From a virus: a DNA stretch of 64,000 bases. The translations under genes and the position numbers were made by a program. The DNA is taken from positions 1 through 64,000 of IMG/VR virus record IMGVR_UViG_3300043409_001318; one strand, given 5' to 3'. Under the pieces are notes generated by a model. That model was given only the letters and a program-made list of their open reading frames with translations. It was not told the origin of the DNA and made no database searches. Positions 31,405-52,579 of the stretch are shown here, piece after piece (the first letter of the stretch is position 1; each line of letters starts with the position of its first letter).

Positions 31405-31405
31405 T

Positions 31406-31413
31406 ACTATTTA
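31406..31413 (+). promoter_or_regulatory. ACTATTTA motif (candidate late promoter)
   Basis: Immediately before ATG 31419. Confidence 0.5.
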
Positions 31414-31418
31414 TTATC

Positions 31419-32708: not shown

Positions 32709-32732
32709 CTTTTCCTAAAACAATATTATAAT
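32705..32732 (+). promoter_or_regulatory. sigma70-like promoter for groEL
   Basis: TTGACT-N16-TATAAT. Confidence 0.6.
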
Positions 32733-32751
32733 ACCCATATACGGAGTTTTT

Positions 32752-34320
32752 ATGAGTAAGCAATACTGCGATGGTCGCTCTTTAAGTGAAGCAATCCTAA
32801 AAGGCGCAAATATATTAGCAGATAACGTTTCTTCTACATTAGGACCAAGAGGAAGAACGGTTATTCTACATGAAAAAGGAAAAACACCAATCATTACGAA
32901 AGATGGTGTCACGGTAAGCAATTATGTTGAACTTTCAGATCCATTTGAGAATTTGGGAGCACAAGTAATTAAACAAGCTTCTCAACAAACTGCTACTCTT
33001 GCTGGTGATGGAACAACAACATCAGTCGTTCTTTCACGCGCAATTCTTCGTGAAGCACAGAAATATCTAATTGCTGGTGTTTCTCCTACCGAATTAAAAA
33101 GAGGAATAGATTTAGCCGTTGACGCTTTGGTAATTAGAATTGGAGAAATAGCACAACCAATTTCGTCCGAAGAAGAAATCGAACATATTGCTTCTATCTC
33201 TGCTAATAACGATAGAACAATTGGTAAATTAATTGCTACTGCGGTAGATAAGGTAGGTAAGGATGGTTCTATCACTATTGAAGAAGCACGGTCAGTCGAT
33301 ACTTCTCTTGATATTGTTGAAGGCTTTCGTTTCGATGCGGGATACCTTGCAGGAGCGTTCATCAACGACGAGAGACGAGGGGTAGTAAAATATGAAGACC
33401 CTTATATTCTTGTAACAGATCATAAATTTGACTCCGTTCAAGATATGTTGCCTGTTCTTGAATTAATCGCAAGAGAAGGAAAACCATTTGTAATTGTAGC
33501 AGATGAAATTGAAGGTCAAGCTCTTGCTGCTCTTATTATGAACGCTATGAGAGGCACAATGAAAGTTGCAGCCGTTAAAGCTCCTCGTTATGGTGAAGAG
33601 CGTAAAAACATTCTTAAAGACCTTGCTATTTCAGTAGGAGCAACTTTTGTTTCTCTTGAAAATAGTATGAAGATTGGCGATGTAAAACTCAAAGATTTTG
33701 GTCGTTCAAAGAAAATTGAAATTGCTAAAAACCTTACCACTATCGTAGGTGGAAAAGGTGATATGGAACAAGTTGACCAAAGAATTGAAACAATTAAAGC
33801 TGAACTTCAACAAACTGAATCAATTTACGAGTGTGAACGTCTACAAGAAAGAATTACTCGTCTTGCTTCTGGTATTGCGATTATTCGTGTAGGTGCTCCA
33901 ACTGAAATTGAAATGATTGAGAAGAAGCACCGTATTGAAGATGCCTTAGAAGCCGTCCGTAGTGCCCAACAGGAAGGTATAGTTGCTGGGGGTGGCGTAG
34001 CCCTCCTTAGAGCAGCAGAAGGGATTGTAGACCCAACAGGGAACGAAGAACAAGCACTTGGTTTCAAGATCATAATGAAGGCTATTGAAGAGCCTGTAAG
34101 ACAAATGGCCCTAAATTCTGGTGAGTCGCCAGACATTATTATTAGTATGATTAAAACAGAACATTCTAATTTTGGTTATGATTTCTTGGGTCGTTCTATG
34201 ATTAATATGGTTGAGAAGGGCATTATTGATCCAGCAAAGGTTACAAGATGTGCTCTTCAAAATGCAGCTTCAGCAGCAGGAACTCTAATCACAACTAACT
34301 ATGCTATTGTCCAAATTTGA
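32752..34320 (+). CDS. groEL: Chaperonin GroEL
   Basis: TLGPRG, ITKDGVTV, AGDGTTT, GGGVALLR, IIDPAKV; no GGM tail. Confidence 0.97.
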   Translation: MSKQYCDGRSLSEAILKGANILADNVSSTLGPRGRTVILHEKGKTPIITKDGVTVSNYVELSDPFENLGAQVIKQASQQTATLAGDGTTTSVVLSRAILREAQKYLIAGVSPTELKRGIDLAVDALVIRIGEIAQPISSEEEIEHIASISANNDRTIGKLIATAVDKVGKDGSITIEEARSVDTSLDIVEGFRFDAGYLAGAFINDERRGVVKYEDPYILVTDHKFDSVQDMLPVLELIAREGKPFVIVADEIEGQALAALIMNAMRGTMKVAAVKAPRYGEERKNILKDLAISVGATFVSLENSMKIGDVKLKDFGRSKKIEIAKNLTTIVGGKGDMEQVDQRIETIKAELQQTESIYECERLQERITRLASGIAIIRVGAPTEIEMIEKKHRIEDALEAVRSAQQEGIVAGGGVALLRAAEGIVDPTGNEEQALGFKIIMKAIEEPVRQMALNSGESPDIIISMIKTEHSNFGYDFLGRSMINMVEKGIIDPAKVTRCALQNAASAAGTLITTNYAIVQI

Positions 34321-34321
34321 T

Positions 34322-34329
34322 ACTAATTA
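34322..34329 (+). promoter_or_regulatory. ACTAATTA motif (candidate late promoter)
   Basis: Recurrent motif; GGAGGG RBS; ATG 34368. Confidence 0.45.
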
Positions 34330-34367
34330 AAGTATACAAATTTACTTTGTGATGGAGGGTCTTATCT

Positions 34368-34655
34368 ATGGCTACAGGTTCCGAACTTAACGAGCTAAAA
34401 GAAGCCATAACGGCACTTGATAAAAAAGTAGATAGAATGATGAGTTCTATTGAAAATCTTAAAGAAAAGCAAGATGATGTAGCCAAAGACATAAGCAAAA
34501 TAAAAGAAGCGGTATACCATCCAGATGAAGGTTTATACGCAAGAATAAAGATATTAGAAACGTGGAAAGAAACCCAATCAAAGGTTAGTTGGATTGCTAT
34601 AACTACCGTATTTGGTTTAGCAGTTAAGCAATTATGGGATATACTAACAAATTAA
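34368..34655 (+). CDS. Coiled-coil protein with C-terminal TM helix (XhlA/holin-like candidate)
   Basis: Heptad region, then WIAITTVFGLAV. Confidence 0.4.
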   Translation: MATGSELNELKEAITALDKKVDRMMSSIENLKEKQDDVAKDISKIKEAVYHPDEGLYARIKILETWKETQSKVSWIAITTVFGLAVKQLWDILTN

Positions 34656-34667
34656 TAGAGGTGTTAA

Positions 34668-34958
34668 TTGAAAGTAAAAATTTCTTATACAGTAGAACTT
34701 GATGAAGTCCCCAATCAAGTTTATAAGTATTTGTTTAACCAAAGTGATATGTCTTTGGATAAAACGTTAGAAGGTGTATTAAAATTAATCCGTGAAGGTA
34801 ATGTTGAAAGTGCCTTGGAAGATATAGATCTTTTTAGAAAAGATCTTGCTAAATTAGATCTTAAGTTAGACGACGCACAATCGATCCTTGACGGCTACAT
34901 GAAGACGCGCTATGGTAATAACGTAGCAGAGAGCCCCGATGAACAACACAAAGTATGA
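34668..34958 (+). CDS. Hypothetical coiled-coil protein
   Basis: AGAGG RBS, TTG start. Confidence 0.55.
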   Translation: MKVKISYTVELDEVPNQVYKYLFNQSDMSLDKTLEGVLKLIREGNVESALEDIDLFRKDLAKLDLKLDDAQSILDGYMKTRYGNNVAESPDEQHKV

Positions 34959-35166
34959 AATAGGACAGCCAATAACTGTTCTGGCTTCATGCGATCTGTT
35001 TTACCCAACCATTAAAAACCCCAATAATTATAAAAAGTCCGAAGCTCCTTTGCTTGGATGGTTTGTTGAGGGTAATGATACAACCGTGACTATTATGACG
35101 GTTGATGATGGACGATATTGGCAAACTCAGTTAGATAGTATTAGAAACTACATGGAGACAAAATGA
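34939..35166 (+). CDS. SH3/KOW-like microprotein
   Basis: YEIGQPITV. Confidence 0.45.
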   Translation: MNNTKYEIGQPITVLASCDLFYPTIKNPNNYKKSEAPLLGWFVEGNDTTVTIMTVDDGRYWQTQLDSIRNYMETK

Positions 35167-35438
35167 TTCAACTTACAGAAGTAATTGAGAACACAGCAGG
35201 TAAGTATATGGTTAGATCAGTTTATATTAATCCTACCCAAGTTGTTATGGTTCGTGAAGACGTTAGATTGGGATCTATTATGGCCGAAGGTAAACTTGAT
35301 CTTGGGTTTACTCCAAATATGCGTTTTTCTCGCATTACGGTAAGAGGCGGAACAAGTAATTATGATGTTGTTGTTGCTGGTGACCCTACAATAGTATATG
35401 AGAAGGTAAATACTTCTAAAACTCTGCTAAAGGGTTAA
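35163..35438 (+). CDS. Conserved phage hypothetical protein
   Basis: MIQLTEV...VYINPTQVVMVRE. Confidence 0.6.
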   Translation: MIQLTEVIENTAGKYMVRSVYINPTQVVMVREDVRLGSIMAEGKLDLGFTPNMRFSRITVRGGTSNYDVVVAGDPTIVYEKVNTSKTLLKG

Positions 35439-35441
35439 ACC

Positions 35442-35705
35442 ATGCACATAGCTTATTATCATATTCATGCTCTTGGAGATTGTGAATATTGCCTTGATGC
35501 ACTTAAACTTCTTCAAGATAATGGTTATCAATATGTTTTAACTCTTTATGATAAATCACCAGAAGCTTTGAATTTCATTAAATATACTATGGATCATCCA
35601 ACGGTTCCAATTATTTATGAGTATCGAAAAGATAAAAGTATTAGGAAAATTGGTGGTTATACAGAGTTGAAGAAGGAGCTTGACAGCCTCCACGAACAGG
35701 AATAG
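35442..35705 (+). CDS. Glutaredoxin-like protein
   Basis: CEYC, TVPII, IGGYTEL. Confidence 0.8.
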   Translation: MHIAYYHIHALGDCEYCLDALKLLQDNGYQYVLTLYDKSPEALNFIKYTMDHPTVPIIYEYRKDKSIRKIGGYTELKKELDSLHEQE

Positions 35706-35708
35706 AAT
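35680..35708 (+). promoter_or_regulatory. sigma70-like promoter
   Basis: TTGACA-N17-TAGAAT. Confidence 0.65.
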
Positions 35709-35731
35709 ACTAAACAAAGGTAGGAGATAGC

Positions 35732-36340
35732 ATGGGTCGCCCAAAGGGTTCTAAGAACAAGCCTAAGAATGTTGAAGTTGAGGTTGAAACTAAGCAAGAA
35801 GAGGTTAAGGTAGTGGCAAGCGAAGAGCCAAAGAAGGAACGCAAGCCAAGGATCACCAAGAGGGTTAAGAATGAAGAAGAAGACGATGGTAATACTATCG
35901 TTGATGAAGGGGCCGCTCAAGCTCGTAAGAACCTTGATGATAGAACACTTGATCCTTTTGCGATGCTTACACTTGAAAAGTTTGAATGTGAATTTGTTGC
36001 CCTCACAGAGCGTCTAACTCCTGTTGAGGAAAATAGTGAGATTAAGAATGGCCGCTATTCAAGTTCTTATTACCCTATTAAGAATTGTAATTACACCGTT
36101 TGGCCTGTTTTGGCTTATATCAATGTTGACGTTGACGCGCTAAGAACAAAGGGTTATGTTGATAAGGTAATCTACGCTGGTTGTATTAATCACCTTTCTT
36201 CCCAAATGAATGGTAAGAAGCGCAAGTATGGTAATCTTTTCCCATTTAGTTTTGCTTTTAAGGAAGATAAGATTATTGCTACTTTCATTACAGACGACCG
36301 AAAGAATAAGAACTTTTGGGGAGAAGGCGTAGGTTCTTAG
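35732..36340 (+). CDS. AT-hook-containing hypothetical protein
   Basis: MGRPKGSKNK. Confidence 0.6.
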   Translation: MGRPKGSKNKPKNVEVEVETKQEEVKVVASEEPKKERKPRITKRVKNEEEDDGNTIVDEGAAQARKNLDDRTLDPFAMLTLEKFECEFVALTERLTPVEENSEIKNGRYSSSYYPIKNCNYTVWPVLAYINVDVDALRTKGYVDKVIYAGCINHLSSQMNGKKRKYGNLFPFSFAFKEDKIIATFITDDRKNKNFWGEGVGS

Positions 36341-36383
36341 ATTATAGAAAGTAAAGATAAAATCATTTTATAAGGAGAAATAA

Positions 36384-36770
36384 ATGAAATGCGTTAAAGA
36401 GCACATAGTAGCCCCTTGGGGTTGGCAAGAAATCATCCAAAAGAATGATAAATATGTTATGAAGCAAATTCATATTAATCCGGGTAAGCGTTTGTCTCTC
36501 CAATACCATGAGAACAAAACAGAAACGATTTTCTGTATGTCCGACGAAGCAATCGTGTGGACGAAACGCTCAGCAGAGGATACAGAAACAAAGAAGATAA
36601 CGCTTAAGTATGGCGAAGCCTTCCACGTTCAAGCCGGACAAATTCATCGCTTTACGGCAGGATTTAAAGCAGTTGATTTGATTGAAGTATCTACACCAGA
36701 ACTTGATGATATAGTTCGTCTTGAAGATGATTATAACCGTATTTCTACAACCACCACAACACAGGAGTAA
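36384..36770 (+). CDS. Cupin, mannose-6-phosphate isomerase C-terminal type
   Basis: PWG, GKRLSLQYH, IHRF, EVSTPELDDIVRLEDDY. Confidence 0.85.
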   Translation: MKCVKEHIVAPWGWQEIIQKNDKYVMKQIHINPGKRLSLQYHENKTETIFCMSDEAIVWTKRSAEDTETKKITLKYGEAFHVQAGQIHRFTAGFKAVDLIEVSTPELDDIVRLEDDYNRISTTTTTQE

Positions 36771-36773
36771 TTA

Positions 36774-37061
36774 ATGACTTTCGCACACACCGCTATCCAG
36801 ACCACCGATATTGAGAATAATATTGATGTAGACGTTAATCGTTCTTATTCTACATTTGACGTTCGCATTGTTCGTAATTCAGTTAGTAAGCGTAAGTTCT
36901 CTAATCGCCTTAGTGTGACTATTCCCGATGGACGTAGTGAAAGCACTTTCCATCTTACTATTCGTGAGGCAAATGCTCTTCGTAAGTTTTTGAATGAAAA
37001 TCTTGATGAAGGTGTTAATGGTTCTGCTATGGTTTCCATGAGTATGCGTGAGGCAAGCTGA
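36774..37061 (+). CDS. Hypothetical protein
   Basis: AGGAG RBS; beta-rich, then a helix. Confidence 0.6.
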   Translation: MTFAHTAIQTTDIENNIDVDVNRSYSTFDVRIVRNSVSKRKFSNRLSVTIPDGRSESTFHLTIREANALRKFLNENLDEGVNGSAMVSMSMREAS

Positions 37062-37062
37062 A

Positions 37063-37458
37063 ATGACAACACCACAAGGAGAAACCTATATGAATATCGC
37101 ACAAGCAATTGATCGTCTTTATGCTGATACTTTCCCTCTTGCTTCTTATCCTCCACCAAGGGCTACACTTAGTAATGTAGACTTTGTATATAACGAAAAG
37201 AGCAGGGTTTATACAGCCACTATTGATGCAGCGGGAGCAGATAAGACAAAGTTTAATGTAAGTATTTCTAATAGAACACTTACCGTTTCTTATCGTGCTA
37301 CCGAAGGGTTCCGTTGTCGTTCCTTTAACTATTCCTTCAGCCTTGGACGAGATATCAACGTCTCGGAGTCAGTTGGAGAGTATAAGGATGGGGTTTTGAG
37401 AGTTGACGTTCATACAACCACAGAACGTAATGATACAGTCAACGTCACCATTCATTAA
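37063..37458 (+). CDS. Hsp20 small heat-shock protein
   Basis: AGADKTKFNVSI...LTV...FNYSFSL...GEYKDGVLRV. Confidence 0.8.
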   Translation: MTTPQGETYMNIAQAIDRLYADTFPLASYPPPRATLSNVDFVYNEKSRVYTATIDAAGADKTKFNVSISNRTLTVSYRATEGFRCRSFNYSFSLGRDINVSESVGEYKDGVLRVDVHTTTERNDTVNVTIH

Positions 37459-37472: not shown

Positions 37473-37505
37473 AAGCCGTCAAAGGGTTCGCCTTTTGGCG
37501 GTTTT
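37473..37505 (+). terminator. Rho-independent terminator, UUCG loop
   Basis: GCCGTCAAAGGG-TTCG-CCTTTTGGCGGT-TTT. Confidence 0.8.
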
Positions 37506-37545: not shown

Positions 37546-40500
37546 ATGTCAAACTTTAATAATCTTTGGAATAACTGGTATAGTACAAAAGTTTTAACTG
37601 AGATGAAGAAGAGAACAAGAGATAGAGTTGTAGCAATATCTAAAAAAATAAAAGAAGAAGCTGGATTAGAAGGACTTAATGATAGTTATACAAGAATGGC
37701 AGCTTTTCCAGAGATATTTGGTGATAAATTAAGAATAGTTGTTGAATCTCAAGATAGTGAACTTGTAATTATGTCTAAATATCTTGGCAGTCTTCAACAA
37801 TTAGTTGCCGCCAGTTTAAAAGATAAAAAAGAAAAGGGTTTTTTAAAACCACCTTACTTTGGAAGTTCTTTTATTACCGATCAAACAATTGCTAAAGAAA
37901 CTAAAAGAAGATTACAAGAAGATGGTGGTGGAACATACGAAATTGACGTTGTATATTACCAACCAACTTTAATAATTCAATATGTTAACATGCAAGAACA
38001 ACAAAAGAAAGAAATTTTTTCTCTTCTTAAAGCGTTTAACAAATTTAAAATGAAAGAAGCAGCAGATTATTGGGGTAAAATTCAATCTAAATATACAAAA
38101 GATAAAGATTTTATAAATAATTTAACAACACAATGGTTTGCAATTAATAAAAGCGATCAAGAACGAAAAATGAAATACGGAGGTGAAAGAAAAGCTATTG
38201 TTTATTCCCGTGCTCCTATTGACGTTTTAAGAATGTCTGACCATCCCATGATTTCTTCTTGTCACTCCCAAGGTGGAGGTTACTTTCAATGCGCTGTTCA
38301 AGAAGCGATTAGAGGAGGTGCTATTGCTTATTCAGTTAATCAAGAAGACATACAAAAAATTATTGATGAAGATAGATTACAAGACATAGAAATATTTGAA
38401 GATAATGAAAGAGGGGTAAAAGGTATTAATCCAGATGGTAGAATTAGAATTAGAAGAATGTTTGATACTGATACCAAACAAGAGTATGCCTTACCAGAGA
38501 TAAGAATATACGGTACTCCACCTGCTTCTTTCCAAAATAGTGTTTTAAGTTGGTCAGCAGAAAATCAAAAATCTAAATTTACAAATTTAGAAACTGGTGA
38601 ATTTCAATTACCAGAGATTAAAAATGCTATAAGAGTTGGTGGTTCTTATGAAGATAATTACGCACCAGATCTTTATAATAGATTAGCTAAGAAAGTTGCT
38701 AATTCTTTTGGAATTAAAGATGAAGATGTTCCAAATTCCAATGTTTATATTCAAAGTGTCACCGTTGATGAAGGCTTGGATTTAATGAGTAATTGCGAAA
38801 GAATTTCAAGAAATATACGAAACGAAATGGTAACTTTTGATATGACAAGACTAGCAGATTATAAAATTATATGTAAAAATAATGGTAAGACAGGTATCGC
38901 ATTTACAAGAGAAGGTCGTACAGAAGAATTTAATGATGAATTCAATGATGAATTTGTTGCGATAGAATTTAATTTCAAATATGAAATACATCAAAATAAT
39001 ATTAAAGGAAAACTTAAAACTGAATTAAACAACGATATAATAAAACAAATAATTAATAAAGGTGGTGAGATATCACCGGATTTTTATTTCTATAAATTAT
39101 ATAAATTACTAAATTTAGAAGGAACAGAATTCAAACCACGCAGAAACGGTCCACACTTGGTTTTTGAAGCAGATGCAAATTTAACCTTTAAAACCGTAGA
39201 AGAATTACGAACATTAAAAAATGAAATATTTAATTACGATAATGATGATAATAATTATCGTAATTTTGAAAGAACTGGTATAGCATTAGATTTTATAGAA
39301 ATGCAGCCATTTGACACAGCATACGCTAAACGTTTATTTAGAGATGTAAAAAATAGTGATTATATGTTCTATTATGAGAGTTCTTATGGTTCTTATAATG
39401 GTTCTACGGTATTATTGGCTCCACCAAGCGAATCTTCACGATCTGAAAGAACAAAAGCATATGATCGTGGTAATCTTAAACAAACAGATATGTTCCCTAC
39501 AATATATAATGGTTTTCTTGAAGGTATAGTGGAATATTTTTATGTTTATTCAATTCCAAAAGAAGCTTTAAGAGCTTCTTTAAAATATCCTACAAAAGAA
39601 AGACACCCAGATGGAGTAGTTTATCGCGCTTTGAAAATAGAGGCTAATCGAAAGAAAGAAGAAATAATGAGAGATATTCAAAAAGTTGTTTATGATATGC
39701 CAGACAAAATTATTAATAGTTTTGGTAGATTAGCACAATCAATTATAGAATTTGGCCCAACGGTAAGAAACCCAGAAGTTATAATCAACAATGAAACTGG
39801 TGAAGCTGATATTGAGAGAGATATTCAAATTGCCTTTACCCTTAAAATAAATCTTTCCACAAGCCTTAGTTCTGATCAACAAGAACAAGCTTTAAAACTT
39901 GTTGAATATTTTTACAATAACTTTTATAAATTTAGAGACAATTTAGAAGAACAATTAATTAATGATCTAAAACAAAAGGGTAGTCAGTTAGTAAAAAGTC
40001 TTATGTCCGATGCTTATCTCAAAGGTATAAAGGGTGAAAAACCTTTAGCAGACCCAATAGCAGAGATAAGACAATTAGACATACCAAACATAATGAAACA
40101 ATTAGAACAACCAGTTATCCAACAAGCAAGAGAAAGTTGGGAAAATTCAAATGGGATAACTACTGATTTAAAAGTTCCTTTTTTTGCTACGACTACAGAC
40201 GAACAAATGATAAGAGTTTATTATTCTTCTACCACTAACTACAAAAAAGTAAATCCATTAGAAGAAAACCTTTTTTATCTGGATTTTAAAATAGAGTATT
40301 TTAAATCAGGTACTAGCACTTATTTAATGATTAAATGTCCTATGATATTTCAACATACTTCTATAAGTGATATGAATGTTCAAGCTCTAACTATGGAAGA
40401 AATAATAGCTGATTTAGCATCGTCTATAGTGACTACTAATTATCGTGCTAAGGCTTCTAAAACAACTTACCAAGAACAAGAAAAGTATTTAGCTGGTAAA

Positions 40501-40704
40501 GAAAGCCAGATGGTATTTGATATAAGTAAGGAAACAAAAGAATTAATACAAACAAGACAAAAAGCAAAGGCAACAAAGGCAGATAAAGATGCGGCTATTG
40601 CTGCAACCACAGAAGACGAAAAACAAATGAAAATGTTTGAACGTAAGATGAATAAGAAACTAATTAAGGAAAGACTTATTAAGTGGTATAAAAGGAATTC
40701 ATAA
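37546..40704 (+). CDS. Large uncharacterised protein, paralogue 1 (SRAPIDVLRMSD-SCHS-YFxCA core)
   Basis: 1052 aa; core shared with the next two ORFs. Confidence 0.8.
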   Translation: MSNFNNLWNNWYSTKVLTEMKKRTRDRVVAISKKIKEEAGLEGLNDSYTRMAAFPEIFGDKLRIVVESQDSELVIMSKYLGSLQQLVAASLKDKKEKGFLKPPYFGSSFITDQTIAKETKRRLQEDGGGTYEIDVVYYQPTLIIQYVNMQEQQKKEIFSLLKAFNKFKMKEAADYWGKIQSKYTKDKDFINNLTTQWFAINKSDQERKMKYGGERKAIVYSRAPIDVLRMSDHPMISSCHSQGGGYFQCAVQEAIRGGAIAYSVNQEDIQKIIDEDRLQDIEIFEDNERGVKGINPDGRIRIRRMFDTDTKQEYALPEIRIYGTPPASFQNSVLSWSAENQKSKFTNLETGEFQLPEIKNAIRVGGSYEDNYAPDLYNRLAKKVANSFGIKDEDVPNSNVYIQSVTVDEGLDLMSNCERISRNIRNEMVTFDMTRLADYKIICKNNGKTGIAFTREGRTEEFNDEFNDEFVAIEFNFKYEIHQNNIKGKLKTELNNDIIKQIINKGGEISPDFYFYKLYKLLNLEGTEFKPRRNGPHLVFEADANLTFKTVEELRTLKNEIFNYDNDDNNYRNFERTGIALDFIEMQPFDTAYAKRLFRDVKNSDYMFYYESSYGSYNGSTVLLAPPSESSRSERTKAYDRGNLKQTDMFPTIYNGFLEGIVEYFYVYSIPKEALRASLKYPTKERHPDGVVYRALKIEANRKKEEIMRDIQKVVYDMPDKIINSFGRLAQSIIEFGPTVRNPEVIINNETGEADIERDIQIAFTLKINLSTSLSSDQQEQALKLVEYFYNNFYKFRDNLEEQLINDLKQKGSQLVKSLMSDAYLKGIKGEKPLADPIAEIRQLDIPNIMKQLEQPVIQQARESWENSNGITTDLKVPFFATTTDEQMIRVYYSSTTNYKKVNPLEENLFYLDFKIEYFKSGTSTYLMIKCPMIFQHTSISDMNVQALTMEEIIADLASSIVTTNYRAKASKTTYQEQEKYLAGKESQMVFDISKETKELIQTRQKAKATKADKDAAIAATTEDEKQMKMFERKMNKKLIKERLIKWYKRNS

Positions 40705-43283
40705 TGAACGATAAAAAAGATTACCAAGTATTATGGGAAGGCTTTATTTCCAATAAAAAAATGTTATTGAATGAAATGGAAGGGCAGTATATGAATTTAA
40801 TTTCTAATGCTACTGCCTATGCCGAAAGCCACCCAGAATTACTACCATTCAAAGAAGTGTTTGGTAATGATTTAAGAAAAGTTATTCCATTCCAACAAAA
40901 GAATGTAGATAAAATTGCTTATCTTTTAAGTATATTTAAATTATTTTCAAGAACAACAGAAGGGAAGCAATATTTAGTACCACAAGTTCAACCAACCACC
41001 GTAAAAGTTAAAAGACAACGCCAAGGTGGTGGTGAAACTTACGAACAAGAACAAACCTTAAATCAACTTGTAGCGGTACATACCTTTATAGATCAAATGG
41101 GTAATTCAAAAACAAGAAATTTGACGATTGTTAATAGTCTAAAATTATTAAATGGTGCTTATAAAAAGTATTTAGAAAAGTCAAATCAAGATCCAAATTC
41201 TGTAAATGTCTCCCAATTTACTATATTAAAAGTATTAGATACTATACCAAGAATGATAGATTGGTGGCAGAAAAATCAATCAAAAATTAATCAAGATCCA
41301 GAAATAGCACAATTATCAAAAGATCTTTCTGACGATATGAGCCAAGAAGCTTGGAAAATGTTTGATACGATTGATGAAAATGAAGGTGCTGGCGAGATAA
41401 CTTCTAAATATTCTATTGTTCTTTCAAGAGTTCCTGTTGATGTGTTAAGAATGTCGGACCATGAAGGGATTAGTTCATGCCATTCTCAACCAAAGAACTA
41501 TGGATCAAATGGATACTTTTATTGTGCTATAGCAGAAGCACAAAATCAAGGTGCTATTGCTTATGTTGTTAATACAGAAGATTTGGAGAATATAGATTTA
41601 AAATCAAAGGAAATCTTTGTAGACCGTGAAAGATCAATAGGAGGAATTAGACCATTATCTCGTATTCGTCTTAGAACTTTAAAAGATACTTCCACAGATC
41701 AAACTATTGCTGTTCCAGAACAAAAGATATATGGTTTATTAATTAATGGTTTTCAAGAATTTATAGATAAATATACGGCTCAATCTCAAAAAGAAATGTT
41801 TGTAGAGCAAGACGAAGATGGAACAAAACAATTAAAACTTCCAATACAAAGAAATCTTACTTATGTTGGTGGTTCTTGGCAAGATAGTCAAATAGGTAGA
41901 AACTTTAAAAGAATGTTAGATTATATAACTGGTTTAGGTGAAGTTAAACCAACCGAAGAACAAAAATTATTGATTAATGATTTTGCTGCGATAAGTGTTA
42001 GATACTCTGGAAATGATACTCAATACGAAGATGATGATGAAGATTATGATGAAGACAATAATGATGAAGACGATCAAAGAGAAGCAGCAGAACAAGAATA
42101 TTACGATCAAATAAGACGAGGAGCTTTTAATACAGATAATTCTTTTATATTTAGAAGTTCTAATTTTAATTGGGTTTGGGGTGAGGGAGTTGAACTAAAA
42201 CTTGTAGCATATACAAAAATTCCAATAGAAACATCTTCATTAAGTAAGAAATATTTTGTTAACGGAGAAGTAGATACAGAAACATTATGTAGTGATATTT
42301 TATCCGCAATAGTAGATAAAGCAGATAAATCTGAAGTAAAAGTTCAACTTGATTACCCAGACGTTGCTATTGATGAAAGTGAAACATATATACAAGGCGA
42401 TAAAGATGATAAATATTTAACACTTAATTTATTTTATATTGAAGATGATATATCAGATATAGGAACATTTGGTTCTCACATATCGGACTTTATCCAATTT
42501 TATAATTCAATAGATAGTTTAGAAGATATATTAAAAGTCTATTTAATAGATAATGGTATTATTAGTGATGGAACATTTAGTATAAGTCAAAGAATAGCAA
42601 ACTTAAAAAATTCTTTTGATCGTGATAAACAAAGAAACTTTACTTATATTGGTGGTGATAAATTTGAGTTTCGTCCTATAACTAATACACAACTTGTTGA
42701 TAGTTCTAAAACTGGAGTATTGTTAACAAAAATTAATGTAGAAGATTATAGAGATATTCGTCATAATTTTGATAGTAGTTTTAATGAAGATATAGTAAGA
42801 TCTTTTGTTAGGGAACAAGAGAAAACACTATCAAGTGCCTATAATAGTTTACAACGAAATTTATTCGATAATATACCAGCTAATTATTTATCTGAATTTA
42901 CAGAACAGGAAAAATTTTCTTTCCTTGGTATTACTGGTGCTTTTAGTGTTGAACTTAAATTTGTTTATATGACCGAAGATATGAAAACAGCAATAGTAAT
43001 GAAAGATAGCGAAGAAGCTAAAATAGTTGGTATTTATGCGGTTCCTGTTATAACAATTGATAGTAAGAAATCACCAGAAGCATTATTGGGACTTATAAAT
43101 TATATGTATATGGTTGATGAAGACCCAGAACAATTTATAGATTTATTATACCTCTCATTTAAGATAGCAGCAAGTCAATATTCTGATCTTAATAATGCTA
43201 TTTCTAAATTGACTGAAAGAAGAAAAAGAGTTATTAAAGAAAGGCTGAAGAATTGGTATAGAAAGAATAAAGGAATTATTTAA
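40704..43283 (+). CDS. Large uncharacterised protein, paralogue 2
   Basis: 859 aa; SRVPVDVLRMSDHEGISSCHS...YFYCA. Confidence 0.8.
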   Translation: MNDKKDYQVLWEGFISNKKMLLNEMEGQYMNLISNATAYAESHPELLPFKEVFGNDLRKVIPFQQKNVDKIAYLLSIFKLFSRTTEGKQYLVPQVQPTTVKVKRQRQGGGETYEQEQTLNQLVAVHTFIDQMGNSKTRNLTIVNSLKLLNGAYKKYLEKSNQDPNSVNVSQFTILKVLDTIPRMIDWWQKNQSKINQDPEIAQLSKDLSDDMSQEAWKMFDTIDENEGAGEITSKYSIVLSRVPVDVLRMSDHEGISSCHSQPKNYGSNGYFYCAIAEAQNQGAIAYVVNTEDLENIDLKSKEIFVDRERSIGGIRPLSRIRLRTLKDTSTDQTIAVPEQKIYGLLINGFQEFIDKYTAQSQKEMFVEQDEDGTKQLKLPIQRNLTYVGGSWQDSQIGRNFKRMLDYITGLGEVKPTEEQKLLINDFAAISVRYSGNDTQYEDDDEDYDEDNNDEDDQREAAEQEYYDQIRRGAFNTDNSFIFRSSNFNWVWGEGVELKLVAYTKIPIETSSLSKKYFVNGEVDTETLCSDILSAIVDKADKSEVKVQLDYPDVAIDESETYIQGDKDDKYLTLNLFYIEDDISDIGTFGSHISDFIQFYNSIDSLEDILKVYLIDNGIISDGTFSISQRIANLKNSFDRDKQRNFTYIGGDKFEFRPITNTQLVDSSKTGVLLTKINVEDYRDIRHNFDSSFNEDIVRSFVREQEKTLSSAYNSLQRNLFDNIPANYLSEFTEQEKFSFLGITGAFSVELKFVYMTEDMKTAIVMKDSEEAKIVGIYAVPVITIDSKKSPEALLGLINYMYMVDEDPEQFIDLLYLSFKIAASQYSDLNNAISKLTERRKRVIKERLKNWYRKNKGII

Positions 43284-46108
43284 TGTCGAAGAACACTCAT
43301 CATTATAACTGGAATTTGTGGTCAAGCAAGAACAAAAAGTTAACAGAAAGAAAGAAAGTTTTGTTAAAAGAGATGGACGAGCAGTTTATTGATATGATAG
43401 AACCAGCTATTATTGCTGCTGGTTCGGGAGCAAATAAAAACTTTGCTCCTTATTTTAATAACAAGAATAGACTTGTAATTAATTATGATGAATCAAAAGT
43501 TAATTATATTGCTACATTAGGCGCATTATGTAGTAATTACATTAAAGAAACAATAGCAAGACAATCCAAATCTTATCAAGCTACTGATGTTTATAAACAA
43601 GATAGACAACAAGTAGATGATATATTAGCAAAAGTAAGAGAGGATGATCCCCACTCTCATTACAGAGAAGAAAGGTTATTTGGTTATGTGAGATATCCAG
43701 TATTAGATTCTATTAACTTTAATATATCACAAAAAGAAACTATACAAACTGGTGTGGGCGTTGGTGGTGTTGGAACAATAGAGAAAAAAATAACTATATA
43801 TGAACCTGTTCTTGAATATAAAGTCACTAAACCAATATTAATTGGAAGTGAAAAGTATTCAGATCTAAATAGACAAAGCACTACTACTTTTGTTTCTACT
43901 TTTGGAGAAATTCTTAACAGGAATAAAGAAAAAGAATTGTTTAATGAATGGAATGGAGCAAAAGGTATAAGTTCACTTAGAGAAAGTATTTGTCAAGATG
44001 GTGAGGTTGTTAAACAAGCTAAAAAAGAATTTCTTAAAATAAATGAAAGTACAGAAACTTTAAAATTATCATTAAGTAAAAGTTTAGAAGCAAAAGCAAG
44101 TGAATATTCTATTGTTATTTCAAGAGCACCTATCGATGTTTTAAGAATGTCCGACTTTGTTGGTATGGAGTCATGCCATTCTACTGGTCGTGAATATTTT
44201 TATTGTGCTCTTGCTGAATCAAGAAATCAAGGGGCTGTTGCTTATCTTGTAAAGACAGAAGATCTTAAAAAAGTAAATCTAAATGATGAAGAAATATTTA
44301 ATGACCGTCAAAGAAGGGTAGGAGGTATAAATCCAATATCAAGAGTTAGACTTAGAAGAATTTATGATGAAGCATTGAAAAGCGATTATATGGTTGTAGA
44401 AGACGCAATTTATGGTTCCAGAAAAGCTTTCTTTGTTGATACAATAAAAAAATGGGCTTCAAATATTCAAAAAGATGTGTTTGCTTTGGGAAACACACCA
44501 GAAGATATTTATATTCCAGATCCAGATGATATAACTTTAAAGGGTGGAAGTTATACTGACTTGGACCAAAGTGGTTTAGCAAAAGAAATAAGAGATATTA
44601 TTTCTAATTCTATTAAATTAAAATTTGGAAATGAGGTATTAGAACAATATAAAACACAAATTGAATCAATTCGATATATTCAATATACAGGTCAAGAAAA
44701 TGAAAATGAATTAAGTACAGATTGTAGTGATGCTGAAAACCTTAAAGATAGTTGGGAAGACACGGTAAGTAGAGTAGGATATGTTAGTAGTGTTGCGTTT
44801 GATGTAATTTGTAATGGTAGTGGTTTAGATCGTATAGAAATGAATATTGAATTAGAAAGTATTGTAATTGGTAATGGTGAAGAATATAATAATAAGAAAC
44901 GTCGTTTTAATATGACGAAAGTAAAAGAATTATTACAAGGTGGTCATTACCATACTTCATATAGAACCGATGCGATGTTAACAGAAAAGTTGGAAAAATA
45001 CTTTAATAAAATTCCTCACTTTAAAGATCTGGTAGGATATGATGTTGAAGGAAATGTTGTTATAAGTGATGATAGAATAGAGTATACAATAAAATTTATA
45101 GGTAATTATCCAACCTCAAGTGAAGCAGAATATTTATCCGGTAGATTTTATAATGTATTAAAGAAATATGATCTTTATGAATTTGAAGAAGTTTGTTTAG
45201 AATTTGCTGAAGAAATGGGATTGCTTGAAGACCAACCATTTGATATAGCAAACGAATATTCCTTAGAAAAATTTGCTGAAGATCTTTTTAAATCAAGAAA
45301 TCATTTTAGATATAATGAAGGAGAAAGTGAAGAAGGTACAAAAGACGTATATTCTTTAATGGGAAATCCAGAAGGACAAGGACCATCTACAAACAATTCT
45401 CCAATAATAGGAATTATTCCATTTGAATATGAACTTAGAGAGAAGTTTATGGAACTATTCCAATATGGCTCTACTAACTTTCAAGTTTCTTTTAGAAATA
45501 AATTTAGTAATAAAATGTATAAATTAAATTCTTCTGTTGATGAACTTGCTTTACCAAGAGAATATAGTAGTAGACAATATCAAATTCCTATGGGTAAACA
45601 AGGAGACTACGGAAAAGCACTAAGAGCCGTAGCACCATCAGCAAGGATGCCGGATGATGAAAGCTTAAGCATTGTTTTAACTGCTGGAGAAGAAAATACA
45701 TTCCAACAAGCACGAAATACAAAACAAATTGAAGTTAAATTATTGTTAGACATACACATAAATGAAGAAATGCAGTCCGAAAACGAAATTATGAGTACCA
45801 TGAACTTTATGGATATATATGGTGGCGAGAAGTATGATGAACTTATAGGCTTAGCCACAGAAGCATTTAAAGAAGCTTGGAAACAATTTGGATTTGAGAT
45901 GGATAGACTTATTTCTAAATTAAGTGAACCAAAACAAAAGAAACCAGATGATTTTTCTTCATTAGAAGCTGGTGTTCAAACAGGTAATCTTCCGCTTTAT
46001 ACTATGAAGTCTGTTGAACAACCAGAAGATAAGAACGAAGCAAAGAAGAATAAGAAACTACTTATTAATGAAAGATTTAAGCGTTTGCTAAGGAACATGA
46101 AAAAATGA
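43283..46108 (+). CDS. Large uncharacterised protein, paralogue 3
   Basis: 941 aa; SRAPIDVLRMSDFVGMESCHS...YFYCA. Confidence 0.8.
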   Translation: MSKNTHHYNWNLWSSKNKKLTERKKVLLKEMDEQFIDMIEPAIIAAGSGANKNFAPYFNNKNRLVINYDESKVNYIATLGALCSNYIKETIARQSKSYQATDVYKQDRQQVDDILAKVREDDPHSHYREERLFGYVRYPVLDSINFNISQKETIQTGVGVGGVGTIEKKITIYEPVLEYKVTKPILIGSEKYSDLNRQSTTTFVSTFGEILNRNKEKELFNEWNGAKGISSLRESICQDGEVVKQAKKEFLKINESTETLKLSLSKSLEAKASEYSIVISRAPIDVLRMSDFVGMESCHSTGREYFYCALAESRNQGAVAYLVKTEDLKKVNLNDEEIFNDRQRRVGGINPISRVRLRRIYDEALKSDYMVVEDAIYGSRKAFFVDTIKKWASNIQKDVFALGNTPEDIYIPDPDDITLKGGSYTDLDQSGLAKEIRDIISNSIKLKFGNEVLEQYKTQIESIRYIQYTGQENENELSTDCSDAENLKDSWEDTVSRVGYVSSVAFDVICNGSGLDRIEMNIELESIVIGNGEEYNNKKRRFNMTKVKELLQGGHYHTSYRTDAMLTEKLEKYFNKIPHFKDLVGYDVEGNVVISDDRIEYTIKFIGNYPTSSEAEYLSGRFYNVLKKYDLYEFEEVCLEFAEEMGLLEDQPFDIANEYSLEKFAEDLFKSRNHFRYNEGESEEGTKDVYSLMGNPEGQGPSTNNSPIIGIIPFEYELREKFMELFQYGSTNFQVSFRNKFSNKMYKLNSSVDELALPREYSSRQYQIPMGKQGDYGKALRAVAPSARMPDDESLSIVLTAGEENTFQQARNTKQIEVKLLLDIHINEEMQSENEIMSTMNFMDIYGGEKYDELIGLATEAFKEAWKQFGFEMDRLISKLSEPKQKKPDDFSSLEAGVQTGNLPLYTMKSVEQPEDKNEAKKNKKLLINERFKRLLRNMKK

Positions 46109-46950
46109 TAATGGAAAGCATATTAAATAATTGGAAAGGCTTTCTCAAAGAAGGCTTTACAGAAGAAGGAACCCCAGACCTTAAATACTATGCTTTCGAT
46201 TGGGATGATAATATAGCCTTTATGCCTACCAAAATTATTCTTCTTGATACAGAGGGTAATGAAGTAGGGATGGCTACCGATCATTTTGCGGAGTATAGAA
46301 CAGAGATAGGTAAGAAAGAGTTTGAATATGAGGGGCACACAATAAAAGACTTTGCTCCATTCCCATTTAGAAATTTTAGAGTTGAAGGTGATACTCAATT
46401 CTTACAAGACGTTATGACTGCTAAATTAGGACCATCATTTCCAGACTTTAAAGAATGTGTTGAAGGTGCTTCTATATTTGCTATAATTACAGCAAGAGGT
46501 CATAATCCAGAAACTCTTAAAGAAGCTTGTAAAAAGTATATTCTTTCTGGTTATGGTGGAATTAATACAGAACAAGTTATATCAAATATTAAAAAATATA
46601 ATGAATTGTATAAATCTTCTGGCTCAACAGATAATTCTAAATTAGTAGATGATTATTTACAAATTTGTAAATTTCATCCTGTAACGTTTGGAGAAGGAAG
46701 CGCAGCAAACCCAGAGCAATTAAAAGTAGTTGCTTTAAATAACTTTATTCAATATGTTAATACAGAAGTAAAGAAAGTTAAAAAACACGCTCAAAAAGGT
46801 TCTAAAATTAAAATAGGTTTCTCCGACGATGATTTCAAGAATATTGAAGCGATGATATCTCACTTTGGGTCAAGAGACGAAAAAGGTAAATTTAAAGCTG
46901 GACGACCACAATCATTAAAGATAAAGTATACAGGCAAACCCCGTGGATAA
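46105..46950 (+). CDS. HAD-superfamily phosphatase-like protein
   Basis: Motif I FDWDD, motif II ITARG, motif IV GFSDDD. Confidence 0.75.
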   Translation: MIMESILNNWKGFLKEGFTEEGTPDLKYYAFDWDDNIAFMPTKIILLDTEGNEVGMATDHFAEYRTEIGKKEFEYEGHTIKDFAPFPFRNFRVEGDTQFLQDVMTAKLGPSFPDFKECVEGASIFAIITARGHNPETLKEACKKYILSGYGGINTEQVISNIKKYNELYKSSGSTDNSKLVDDYLQICKFHPVTFGEGSAANPEQLKVVALNNFIQYVNTEVKKVKKHAQKGSKIKIGFSDDDFKNIEAMISHFGSRDEKGKFKAGRPQSLKIKYTGKPRG

Positions 46951-51937: not shown

Positions 51938-52014
51938 GTGGGGATAGCTCAAATGGATAGAGCAAAAGTTTTCTACACTTTAGGTTGAAGGTTCAAGTCC
52001 TTCTCTCCACGCCA
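51938..52014 (+). tRNA. tRNA-Arg(UCU)
   Basis: Cloverleaf folded by hand; loop TTTCTAC; encoded CCA. Confidence 0.92.
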
Positions 52015-52081
52015 CTTTAACAATATGCTATACCGATTATGATGCTTTTAAAAGCTCGTTTAAACCAACTGTAAACATTAT

Positions 52082-52158
52082 CCACCTTTAGCTCAGTTGG
52101 TCAGAGCAATAAGCTTATATCTTATCGGTCCCCCGTTCAAATCGGGGAAGGTGGACCA
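52082..52158 (+). tRNA. tRNA with UAU anticodon (Ile)
   Basis: Stem ATAAG/CTTAT, loop CTTATAT; CCA. Confidence 0.9.
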
Positions 52159-52221
52159 ATCAGCTTGAAACTACTTGACACCTTTGCGAAGCGTGTTAAA
52201 GTATAGGCAAGCAAACAGTAC

Positions 52222-52307
52222 GGCTCCTTGGTGGAATGGTATACACAGCAGACTTAAAATCTGTCGCCCTCACGGGCTTGCGAGTTCAAGTCTCGCAGGA
52301 GCCACCA
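52222..52307 (+). tRNA. tRNA-Leu(UAA)
   Basis: Loop CTTAAAA, long variable arm, CCA. Confidence 0.93.
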
Positions 52308-52313
52308 CTTTTT

Positions 52314-52400
52314 GGGAAGATGGTGTAATGGTAGCCACGACAGACTCAAAATCTGTTGCTTAACGTAAGCGTAAGGGTTCAAGTCCCTTTCTTCCCACCA
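52314..52400 (+). tRNA. tRNA-Leu(CAA)
   Basis: Loop CTCAAAA, long variable arm, CCA. Confidence 0.93.
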
Positions 52401-52406
52401 CATTAC

Positions 52407-52492
52407 GGAGAATTAGTCTAATTGGTAAGGCAACGGATTTGAAATCCGTCGAGGTAAAACTCTTACACGTTCAAGTCGTGTATTCTCCGCCA
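52407..52492 (+). tRNA. tRNA-Ser(UGA)
   Basis: Loop TTTGAAA, long variable arm, G73, CCA. Confidence 0.93.
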
Positions 52493-52497
52493 TTTTA

Positions 52498-52573
52498 GGG
52501 ACGGTAGCTCAGTTGGTAGAGCAAGGGCCTTTTAAGCCCAAGGTCGTGGGATCGTGCCCCACCCGTCCCACCA
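52498..52573 (+). tRNA. tRNA-Lys(UUU), atypical T-loop
   Basis: Loop CTTTTAA; T-loop ATCGTGC; CCA. Confidence 0.88.
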
Positions 52574-52579
52574 CTTTTT

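What the first reader, a model, noticed from the sequence alone, without database searches (positions are those of the whole stretch)
37546..46108. Three tandem giant paralogues with an unrecognised Cys/His core and divergent C-terminal halves
Seen: 1052, 859 and 941 aa ORFs coupled by TAATG overlaps. They share about 330 N-terminal residues: F.E.F....R.V, a Gly-rich hairpin, SR(A/V)P(I/V)DVLRMSD(H/F)...SCHS...YFxCA..E...GA(I/V)AY.V..ED...EIF.D..R...GI.P..R(I/V)R(I/L)R...IYG...GGS(Y/W).D. The following 500-700 aa are unalignable, and each ends with the xxER(L/F) tail. Invariant D, C, H, C, E and R residues suggest an enzyme or metal site. Inference: a conserved catalytic or delivery module fused to variable specificity domains (polymorphic-effector logic), made late and possibly injected with the DNA. 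I cannot assign a family.
Basis: partly seen in the sequence, partly recalled or inferred. Interest (0 to 1): 0.86.

Follow-up and report, generated by a model that had tools for sequence, protein, structure and literature searches.

The report
Three paralogous virion proteins, unnamed family
Three back-to-back giant genes in this T4-headed marine phage belong to a large unnamed protein family; distant relatives in two cultured jumbo phages were found by mass spectrometry in purified virions, so these proteins are probably packed into the head and may be delivered with the DNA, but what their conserved core does is unknown.

Summary
ORFs 37546-40704, 40704-43283 and 43283-46108 (1052, 859 and 941 aa) overlap by TAATG. 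They share about 375 N-terminal residues and a basic tail.

The core defines a large phage-only family of 1078 cluster representatives. It has no Pfam, PHROG, NCBIfam or PDB sequence match, and about 24 residues are nearly invariant. A confident AlphaFold model (pLDDT 86) has no solved-structure match. The only resemblance is a weak GNAT-like topology (Z 5.7 or less).

The model does match uncharacterised proteins of cultured jumbo phages. One is Pseudomonas phage Lu11, which also has three tandem copies. Two distant relatives were found in purified virions in published mass spectrometry:
- Atu_ph07 gp394: 18 unique peptides, 41% coverage.
- RsoM2USA ORF132: one of about ten major gel bands.

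This genome has a T4-type gp23 capsid protein and gp21 protease. The family carries a nearly universal [LI]-x-E just before the folded domain, and the three paralogues also have an [LI]-x-E before their tail.

Profile comparison shows that the C-terminal halves of B and C are diverged homologues of the family's common C-terminal region. They are not unrelated cargo domains. A's half remains unplaced.

Best reading: packaged, probably processed and ejected, virion proteins. Biochemistry is unknown.

The parts
37473..37504 (+). Terminator-like hairpin (14 pairs plus a T run) that closes the upstream unit. The A-B-C-281aa block starts after it.
37546..40704 (+). Paralogue A, 1052 aa. Leader residues 1-19 (LWNNWYSTKVLTE), folded N-terminal module about residues 22-385, a 677-aa C-terminal half of unplaced origin, and the tail KKLIKERLIKWYKRNS.
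38170..38664 (+). Core of A (residues 209-373) carrying the invariant R-P-D-RMSD / SCH / C-A-E / E-F-D / RxRxR / YG / GG-Y-D constellation.
40704..43283 (+). Paralogue B, 859 aa. Leader VLWEGFISNKKMLLNE. The C-terminal half is homologous to the family's main C-terminal type. Tail KRVIKERLKNWYRKNKGII.
41388..41894 (+). Core of B.
43283..46108 (+). Paralogue C, 941 aa. Leader YNWNLWSSKNKKLTERKKVLLKE. The first ~250 residues of its C-terminal region (the 517 aa after the core) align to the family's main type over 180 columns (region residues 38-253). Tail KKLLINERFKRLLRNMKK.
44084..44569 (+). Core of C.
46105..46950 (+). Fourth gene of the block (281 aa), overlapping C by ATGA. It starts with the strict T4-CTS-like leader MIMESILNNWKGFLKE. 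No Pfam or PHROG match.

Best explanation
A, B and C are diverged whole-length paralogues of a large, unnamed, phage-only family of virion proteins found mostly in large and jumbo phages with T4-type heads.

Most likely mechanism. Step (1) is shown only for distant homologues; steps (2)-(4) are inferred.
1. The proteins are built into the particle.
2. They are probably built into the prohead core. An N-terminal aromatic leader would target them there, as the T4 capsid targeting sequence does.
3. The gp21-type prohead protease cuts after the nearly universal [LI]-x-E (A E19, B E24, C E22 or E30). It may also cut at the [LI]-x-E about 10-13 residues from the C-terminus, as happens at both ends of T4 Alt.
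4. The mature proteins leave with the DNA at infection.

The conserved N-terminal module has two parts: a long beta-hairpin domain, and an alpha/beta core with GNAT-like topology. The core's invariant Asp/Glu, Cys-His...Cys and same-face RxRxR residues look like a ligand, metal or phosphate-binding site. It is possibly a new enzyme. Its chemistry is unknown.
For: Family and homology:
- 1078 cluster representatives at E 0.001 or better.
- 217 IMG/VR stretches.
- Only 2 MAG contigs among 185,579 species genomes.
- Copy number in relatives is 1-3.

Structure:
- The AlphaFold model of A residues 1-385 has pLDDT 86.3.
- Foldseek against predicted viral structures gives E 1e-15 to 4e-4 to uncharacterised proteins of Dickeya phage JA29, Atu_ph07 and Lu11 (I1TQL5 and I1TQL6).
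- hhalign of the family against Lu11_0207-0209 plus Atu_ph07 gives 98.7%, E 3e-16.
- HMM E-values are 1.3e-7 for Atu_ph07 and 6.6e-18 for RsoM2USA ORF132.

Virion evidence from the literature:
- Atu_ph07 AUZ95153 is gp394 of PMC6102473 Table S5. It was found in purified virions with 18 unique peptides and 41% coverage. The mapping was checked with seven molecular-weight matches.
- RsoM2USA ORF132 (76.6 kDa) is one of about ten major virion bands identified by LC-MS/MS (PMC8504454).

T4-type head:
- Peptidase_S77 at G000:154166-154612 (E 8e-29) and Gp23 (E 9e-60).
- Peptidase_S77 is present in 8 of 10 other records that carry a family member.
- gp21 cuts after L/I-X-E, and Alt is cut at both ends (PMC9026906).

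Leader and tail:
- In 73 family N-termini the position of A L17 is L or I in 65 of 69 sequences, and E19 is E in 67 of 69.
- In the model it lies before the first confident helix (residues 22-39); residues 1-17 have low pLDDT.
- RsoM2USA ORF132 starts MKTFKQFLNTLME. T4 ipII and ipIII start MKTYQEFIAE.
- The co-transcribed fourth gene and six other proteins of this genome start with W-x-x-[FY]-[LI]-x-E. Counting an eighth ORF with Y-x-x-Y-L-x-E, 8 match the strict pattern against about 1.5 expected.
Against: - No virion data exist for this phage or its close relatives. The two mass-spectrometry hits are distant homologues: the shared region is about 130 columns, and several 'invariant' residues differ.
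- Mass spectrometry shows presence in particles. It does not show location in the head, processing or ejection.
- The genes sit among replication, nucleotide-metabolism and chaperone genes, far from the head and tail genes at 154-168 kb.
- In relative L078 a family member lies between a replication-module gene and DnaB.
- L/I-x-E is a short motif. A, B and C have 14, 9 and 14 such sites.
- The residues after E19 ([IVM]-[ST]) are also conserved, so the motif could simply start the fold.
- The leaders of A, B and C fit the T4 pattern only loosely.
- Lu11 and a 618-kb relative show no Peptidase_S77 match.
- T4, GAP32 and PaBG show no family member.
Confidence: 0.55

Rival explanations
1. They are intracellular (non-virion) enzymes of the replication or nucleotide-metabolism programme. 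The invariant core would act on DNA, RNA or nucleotides inside the infected cell. The virion detections of distant homologues would then be carry-over or a different use of the fold.
For: - Neighbours in the window are ClpP, GroEL, Hsp20 and a cupin protein. Further upstream lie DnaB, RNR, DnaE and UvsX.
- Across relatives the commonest neighbours are NUDIX, GroEL, DnaB and RNR.
- About 24 near-invariant polar residues, including RxRxR and several acidic residues, fit an active site.
- Some relatives carry a NUDIX fusion or a weak pol-beta nucleotidyltransferase fusion.
Against: - Atu_ph07 gp394 has 18 unique peptides, which places it among the better-covered virion proteins.
- RsoM2USA ORF132 is a visible Coomassie band.
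- Gene order in jumbo phages is poorly modular. In the Atu_ph07 study, virion proteins outside three large clusters are scattered across the genome (PMC6102473).
- The leader and L/I-x-E features would be unexplained.
Confidence: 0.2
2. They are structural, non-ejected parts of the particle, such as tail, baseplate, fibre or decoration proteins. The fast-evolving C-terminal halves would contact the host surface.
For: - Mass spectrometry does not localise the homologues.
- One relative carries Peptidase_M23, a typical cell-wall-degrading virion domain.
- Rapid C-terminal divergence is typical of host-contact proteins.
- Atu_ph07 and its relatives are 'hairy' phages with many unassigned structural proteins (PMC6102473).
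Against: - No fibre, beta-helix or other tail-associated domains were found by Pfam or PHROGs.
- The genes are not near the tail or baseplate genes.
- The near-invariant charged core is unusual for a purely structural protein.
- The nearly universal [LI]-x-E at the N-terminus and the CTS-like start of RsoM2USA ORF132 point to the head core.
Confidence: 0.15
3. Polymorphic-effector logic. A constant delivery module would carry unrelated, exchangeable effector domains in A, B and C.
For: - There are 27 C-terminal similarity clusters among 261 family members.
- Some relatives carry fusions to NUDIX, M23 or DUF7178.
- A's C-terminal half matches nothing.
Against: - 184 of 261 C-terminal regions form one cluster.
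- B and C are remote homologues of that type: 98% (E 3e-13, 322 columns) and 94%. B against C gives 89%. The reversed-profile control gives E above 0.29.
- No recognisable effector or toxin domain is present in A, B or C.
- No immunity-like partner gene is apparent.
Confidence: 0.1

Closest known systems
Atu_ph07 gp394 (AUZ95153), RsoM2USA ORF132 and Lu11_0207/0208/0209: uncharacterised 'hypothetical proteins' of cultured jumbo phages
   Same: - The N-terminal core is homologous: hhalign 98.7%, Foldseek E as low as 1e-6, and shared S-x-x-P-x-D-h-x-x-M-S, S-C, AY, G-R, YG..PGF and Y-D-D motifs.
- Lu11 also has three tandem copies of 627, 887 and 899 aa.
- The C-terminal extensions are long and variable.
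- Two members are proven virion proteins.
   Different: - In that branch H240 becomes M, C249 is lost, the E-F-D loop is lost, and RxRxR becomes RxLxK.
- The N-terminal beta-hairpin region aligns poorly.
- The Atu_ph07 C-terminus is made of DUF4116 repeats.
T4 Alt (packaged ADP-ribosyltransferase) and its tandem paralogues in T-even phages
   Same: - Large size (682 aa).
- Packaged in a T4-type head.
- Propeptides are removed by gp21 at both ends after L/I-x-E.
- Ejected with the DNA.
- Many T-even genomes hold 2-3 Alt-like copies that share the N-terminal part.
   Different: - No detectable homology: hhalign probability is 0.4% and the family HMM finds nothing in T4.
- No ART domain or R-S-E motif.
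- The predicted fold is not ART-like.
[quoted passage not shown]
   Same: - Unrelated proteins share a short N-terminal leader with aromatic residues three apart, followed by [IL]-x-E (MKTYQEFIAE).
- The fourth gene of this block and six others in the genome have W-x-x-[FY]-[LI]-x-E.
- A, B and C have a looser version of the same pattern.
   Different: - A, B and C are about ten times larger than the IPs.
- In A, B and C the aromatic pair and the L-x-E are 4-8 residues apart.
- Neither targeting nor cleavage has been tested.
GNAT (GCN5-related N-acetyltransferase) fold
   Same: - The core's order of secondary structure is beta1-alpha-alpha-beta2-(alpha)-beta3-beta4-alpha-beta.
- All top 50 structural neighbours of the core-only model are GNAT-superfamily proteins.
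   Different: - The scores are weak: Z 5.7 or less and Foldseek E 0.027 or worse, within the range the tool calls uninformative.
- No Pfam GNAT match.
- No Q/R-x-x-G-x-G/A motif.
- The invariant residues are unlike those of GNATs.

Membership tests
Unnamed jumbo-phage virion protein superfamily (Atu_ph07 gp394, RsoM2USA ORF132, Lu11_0207-0209) | Homologous N-terminal core with the shared motifs P-x-D-h-x-x-M-S, S-C, AY, G-R, YG..PGF and Y-x-D | tested here: met
   hhalign of A5 against A6 gives 98.7%, E 3e-16, 126 columns. HMM E-values are 1.3e-7 and 6.6e-18. Foldseek against BFVD gives E 1e-15 to 4e-4.
Unnamed jumbo-phage virion protein superfamily (Atu_ph07 gp394, RsoM2USA ORF132, Lu11_0207-0209) | Physical presence in purified virions | not testable with these tools
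   This is shown only for Atu_ph07 gp394 and RsoM2USA ORF132 in the literature. No proteomics exist for this uncultured phage.
T4-type capsid-targeted, gp21-processed internal proteins | The phage encodes a gp21-type (Peptidase_S77) prohead protease and a gp23-type capsid protein | tested here: met
   PF03420 scores 97 bits and PF07068 scores 198 bits, both in the same genome.
T4-type capsid-targeted, gp21-processed internal proteins | N-terminal propeptide of about 10-19 aa with two aromatic residues three apart, ending in L/I-x-E | tested here: inconclusive
   A has W8..W11 then LTE19. B has W11..F14 then LNE24. C has W10..W13 then LTE22 and LKE30. [LI]-x-E is 94-97% conserved across the family. 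The spacing is looser than in T4, and the motif could belong to the fold.
T4-type capsid-targeted, gp21-processed internal proteins | Cleavage by the prohead protease and ejection with the DNA | not testable with these tools
   This needs virion mass spectrometry, N-terminal mapping and an ejection assay.
T4 Alt / ADP-ribosyltransferase | ART fold with the R-S-E catalytic motif, or sequence homology to Alt | tested here: not met
   There is no Pfam ART match. hhalign against T4 Alt gives probability 0.4%. The only ART rows in the fold searches are negligible (pertussis toxin S1 and EcPltA, probability 0.10-0.18, TM 0.18-0.24).
GNAT acyl-CoA N-acyltransferases | GNAT fold with the acetyl-CoA pyrophosphate-binding motif Q/R-x-x-G-x-G/A between beta4 and alpha3 | tested here: inconclusive
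   Best VIA Z is 5.7 (rmsd 3.7, 101 residues aligned). Best Foldseek E is 0.027. At the equivalent place the family has R-x-Y-G-x-x-x-P-G-F, which is not the GNAT motif. No Pfam match.
Polymorphic toxin or effector systems | Constant N-terminal trafficking module with unrelated, swappable C-terminal toxin domains and cognate immunity genes | tested here: not met
   The C-terminal halves of B and C are homologous to the family's common C-terminal type. No toxin domain and no immunity-like gene were found.

The most novel reading that the evidence does not exclude
The invariant core is a new enzyme fold with no solved relative. On this reading, T4-headed large phages pack it into the capsid in one to three diverged copies and inject it with the DNA. 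It would then carry out a so far unknown modification of a host or phage macromolecule, or of a nucleotide cofactor, in the first seconds of infection. Candidate catalytic features are an Asp/Glu metal site, the Cys-His...Cys cluster and an RxRxR phosphate-binding strand.
Probability: 0.25. Interest if true: 0.8.

Novelty: new variant of a known kind. Interest (0 to 1): 0.55.

Why it matters
Packaged-and-injected proteins are a phage's first move against the host. In T4 they are small anti-restriction proteins and the Alt ADP-ribosyltransferase.

This report describes a family of more than a thousand sequence clusters. It has a confidently predicted fold with no solved relative and a near-invariant polar site. 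It is abundant in marine and soil large phages, and distant members in two cultured jumbo phages are virion proteins, yet every member is annotated 'hypothetical'.

Linking the marine clade to mass-spectrometry-verified virion proteins makes the question testable in existing culture systems (Atu_ph07, RsoM2USA, Lu11). The recurrence of three tandem copies in two distant lineages suggests either functional specialisation or a hetero-oligomer.

Tried and rejected
Library and sequence searches that found nothing meaningful:
- Pfam, PHROGs and NCBIfam on the full proteins, and Pfam and PHROGs on 18 or 73 family members one by one. No consistent family appeared; the Tropomodulin and RE_HindIII rows are noise.
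- PDB sequence profiles. Best hits were L22 at E 0.13 and mandelate racemase at E 2.
- tblastn of B and of a 687-aa relative against 50,697 phage records found no match. An 810-aa relative hit only a short, unrelated CW-GY motif of cyanophages.
- ESM Atlas returned only unnamed viral clusters for the core, and nothing for B's C-terminal half.

Structure searches:
- Fold searches against the PDB for both models gave nothing above Z 5.7.

Hypotheses rejected:
- ART (R-S-E). The stretch 'SRAPIDVL' recalls 'SRPPDEI' of cholera and pertussis toxins from memory. However, the spacing from R to the S-x-S is about 16 residues where ARTs have 40 or more, the fold is not ART, and there is no Alt homology.
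- Primase, polymerase and nuclease readings. No motif or fold support was found.
- ClpP at 30709 as the prohead protease. It is a Clp protease by Pfam. The true gp21-type protease is at 154 kb.
- T4 late promoter. TATAAATA occurs 7 times in the window against 10 expected. One copy minus its last base (TATAAAT) overlaps A's start codon, too close to serve as its promoter; there is none further upstream in the leader.

Tools that could not be run:
- Complex prediction (A with B N-terminal modules) could not be reached in five tries, so no result exists.
Full report
**What is there**

Three + strand ORFs lie at 37546-40704 (A, 1052 aa), 40704-43283 (B, 859 aa) and 43283-46108 (C, 941 aa). A/B and B/C overlap as TAATG. 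C overlaps the next gene (46105-46950, 281 aa) as ATGA. Each junction has an AAGGAA Shine-Dalgarno inside the end of the upstream gene. A 14-pair terminator-like hairpin at 37473-37504 precedes A, so the four genes look like one unit.

The three proteins align over their first ~375-430 residues at 33-35% identity, and at 42-47% in a 165-aa core. Pairwise BLASTP of the remaining 460-680 residues finds only the short basic tail.

**The genome**

The window is the first 64 kb of a 184,352-bp IMG/VR virus record that CheckV rates complete. The window encodes:
- a DnaE-type polymerase, DnaB, RNR and UvsX;
- a PurZ-like enzyme;
- ClpP, GroEL and Hsp20;
- 11 tRNAs.

The polymerase is only about 30% identical to any cultured phage. 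Outside the window the genome has a T4-type head system:
- a Peptidase_S77 (gp21-like) prohead protease at 154166-154612;
- a Gp23 major capsid protein at 166912-168426.

The capsid protein has an L-R-E just before the segment that, as I recall the T4 sequence, corresponds to the mature N-terminus of gp23. No alignment to T4 gp23 was made.

**The family**

A profile of the shared region finds 1078 cluster representatives at 50% identity, 624 of them below 1e-30. It also finds 217 IMG/VR stretches, on contigs of up to 618 kb. Only two MAG contigs match among 185,579 species genomes. The family is essentially phage-only. At least one member comes from Tara Oceans seawater samples.

Pfam, PHROGs, NCBIfam and PDB sequence searches name nothing.

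In 266 cores, 24 positions are 97-100% conserved:
- R-x-P-x-D-x-x-R-M-S-D;
- S-C-H, then C-A-x-x-E;
- R-x-R-x-R on one strand;
- Y-G, Q, and G-G-x-Y-x-D.

E-x-F-x-D-x-x-R (87-93% conserved) lies between C-A-x-x-E and the R-x-R-x-R strand.

Typical members are about 690-950 aa, with the core starting at residue 120-240. Copy number per locus is 1-3, and A-, B- and C-type orthologues recur together in the closest relatives.

**Structure**

With a 73-sequence alignment, AlphaFold2 gives a confident model of A residues 1-385 (pLDDT 86.3, pTM 0.78). Its parts are:
- a poorly ordered leader (residues 1-20, with a weak helix at 4-12);
- a helical segment;
- a domain of long beta-hairpins (106-159);
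- helices (160-210);
- the alpha/beta core (216-385).

Neither Foldseek nor the exhaustive VIA search finds a convincing solved relative. The best whole-model results are Foldseek E 0.03 and Z 5.2. For the core alone, all top 50 neighbours are GNAT-superfamily proteins, but at Z 5.7 or less. The tool itself rates that range as uninformative. I therefore call the topology GNAT-like and do not claim membership. The GNAT CoA-binding motif is absent.

**Link to cultured phages and to virions**

Against predicted viral structures, the model hits 12 uncharacterised proteins at E 1e-15 to 4e-4. They include two from Dickeya phage JA29, one from Agrobacterium phage Atu_ph07, and I1TQL5 and I1TQL6. The last two are 887 and 899 aa, the lengths of Pseudomonas phage Lu11_0208 and Lu11_0209.

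Lu11 carries three tandem paralogues, Lu11_0207/0208/0209, of 627, 887 and 899 aa. That is the same arrangement as in this window.

Homology is confirmed by sequence:
- The family HMM finds Atu_ph07 AUZ95153 at E 1.3e-7.
- The family HMM finds RsoM2USA ORF132 at E 6.6e-18.
- hhalign of the family against the Lu11-plus-Atu_ph07 alignment gives 98.7%, E 3e-16.

Two of these homologues have published virion proteomics.

Atu_ph07 AUZ95153 (55.10 kDa) is gp394 in Table S5 of Attai et al. 2018 (PMC6102473). I established the numbering offset from seven exact molecular-weight matches in the same region. It was found in purified virions with 18 unique peptides and 41% coverage.

RsoM2USA ORF132 was computed here as 76.62 kDa; the paper gives 76.64. 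It is one of about ten Coomassie-visible virion bands identified by LC-MS/MS (PMC8504454).

**T4-style targeting and processing logic**

T4 gp21 cleaves after L/I-X-E. The 10-residue capsid targeting sequence of IPIII depends mainly on residues 4 and 7 for targeting, and on residues 8 and 10 for cleavage. Alt loses propeptides at both ends (PMC9026906). T4 ipII and ipIII begin MKTYQEFIAE.

In this genome, eight + strand ORFs have Ar-x-x-Ar-[LI]-x-E in their first 25 residues, against about 1.5 expected. Seven of them read W-x-x-[FY]-[LI]-x-E. One of the seven is the gene that overlaps C.

A, B and C have a looser form, in which an aromatic pair three apart is followed 4-8 residues later by L-x-E. 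Across 73 family N-termini that L/I is 94% conserved and the Glu 97% conserved. It lies just before the first confident helix of the model.

RsoM2USA ORF132 starts MKTFKQFLNTLME-A, which is close to the T4 sequence.

The conserved tail of A, B and C contains I-K-E, I-K-E and I-N-E, 10-13 residues from the end. Many ~810-aa relatives end in a W-K-x-[FY]-L peptide instead.

Peptidase_S77 is present in 8 of 10 other records that carry a family member, including Atu_ph07 and RsoM2USA. It is absent from Lu11 and from a 618-kb contig.

These points are consistent with head targeting and processing, but none is proof. L/I-x-E occurs 9-14 times per protein by chance. The conserved Glu may belong to the fold. 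Part of the tail is constrained by the downstream ribosome-binding site.

**C-terminal halves**

Among 261 family C-terminal regions, 184 fall into one BLAST cluster. A, B and C fall into three separate small clusters.

Profile-profile comparison with the tails trimmed off gives:
- main type against B: 98.0%, E 3e-13, 322 columns;
- main type against C: 94.3%, E 1e-7, 180 columns;
- B against C: 89.4%, E 2e-6;
- A against anything: not significant;
- reversed-profile controls: E 0.29-0.78.

B and C are therefore whole-length diverged paralogues of a ~700-aa ancestor, not a constant module joined to foreign domains. A is either further diverged or partly replaced.

Genuine fusions exist in distant relatives: NUDIX, Peptidase_M23, DUF7178 and a weak pol-beta nucleotidyltransferase.

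**What the core might do**

The marine clade's invariants suggest a ligand, metal or phosphate-binding site:
- three acidic positions;
- Cys-His...Cys;
- three arginines alternating on one strand, and so on the same face.

In the Lu11/Atu_ph07/RsoM2USA branch, His, the second Cys, the E-F-D loop and two of the three arginines are replaced. The P-x-D, M-S, S-C, G-R, Y-G and Y-x-D positions persist.

Either the chemistry differs between the branches, or the universally conserved role is architectural. I put about 0.3-0.35 on catalysis.

**Verdict**

Observation: confirmed.

Interpretation: partly supported.
- The virion or injected reading gains literature-backed support through homologues.
- The polymorphic-cargo reading is weakened.
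- Catalysis and late timing are untested.

This is a new, unnamed family within a known kind, namely packaged proteins of T4-type heads. Its fold has no solved relative.

An earlier first-reader note (e1-5877248) describes this same stretch read in an overlapping window. Notes e1-5859682 and e1-5877249 gave the shared-leader lead, which I tested here.

Noticed in passing
window 9402-10694 and 46105-46950; same genome (G000) 72363, 73655, 74924, 75791, 80381, 181063: Eight otherwise unrelated + strand ORFs carry Ar-x-x-Ar-[LI]-x-E within their first 25 residues (expected about 1.5). Seven read W-x-x-[FY]-[LI]-x-E. This has the same spacing as the T4 capsid targeting sequence MKTYQEFIAE, and the phage has a gp21-type protease.
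   Followed up: partly
L072-L093 (IMG/VR relatives), C-termini of the ~810-aa family members: The same W-K-x-[FY]-L peptide sits at the extreme C-terminus of many relatives (for example ...NESLVSNWKDYLKL). Their N-termini instead carry a CW-GY motif shared with small cyanophage proteins such as S-RIM8 gp114. The peptide seems to work at either end.
   Followed up: partly
window 26157-27194: A 345-aa protein matches phrog_1211 (E 3e-68), a PurZ-type adenylosuccinate synthetase homologue. The phage DNA may therefore contain 2-aminoadenine.
   Followed up: no
window 30709-37458: A proteostasis cluster lies just upstream of the paralogues: ClpP (Pfam CLP_protease, E 3.5e-32), a 429-aa unknown, GroEL (phrog_5725, E 8e-140), a 95-aa ORF at 34368-34655 that co-occurs with GroEL in 8 relatives, a cupin protein and Hsp20. 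GroEL is next to a family member in 13 related loci.
   Followed up: partly
L110 (Pseudomonas phage Lu11, 161124-168496): Lu11_0207, 0208 and 0209 are three tandem paralogues of the same superfamily. All are annotated as hypothetical. This mirrors the triple in this window in a distant lineage.
   Followed up: yes
L078:5365-7581: A close relative (DnaB 84% and RNR 80% identical) has a 738-aa family member inserted between the homologue of window gene 10702-11454 and DnaB. The window has no gene at that place, so the family's position in the genome is mobile.
   Followed up: no
window 51938-52996: A tight array of 11 tRNA genes: Arg, Ile, Leu x2, Ser, Lys, Thr, Glu, Met, Tyr and Asn.
   Followed up: no
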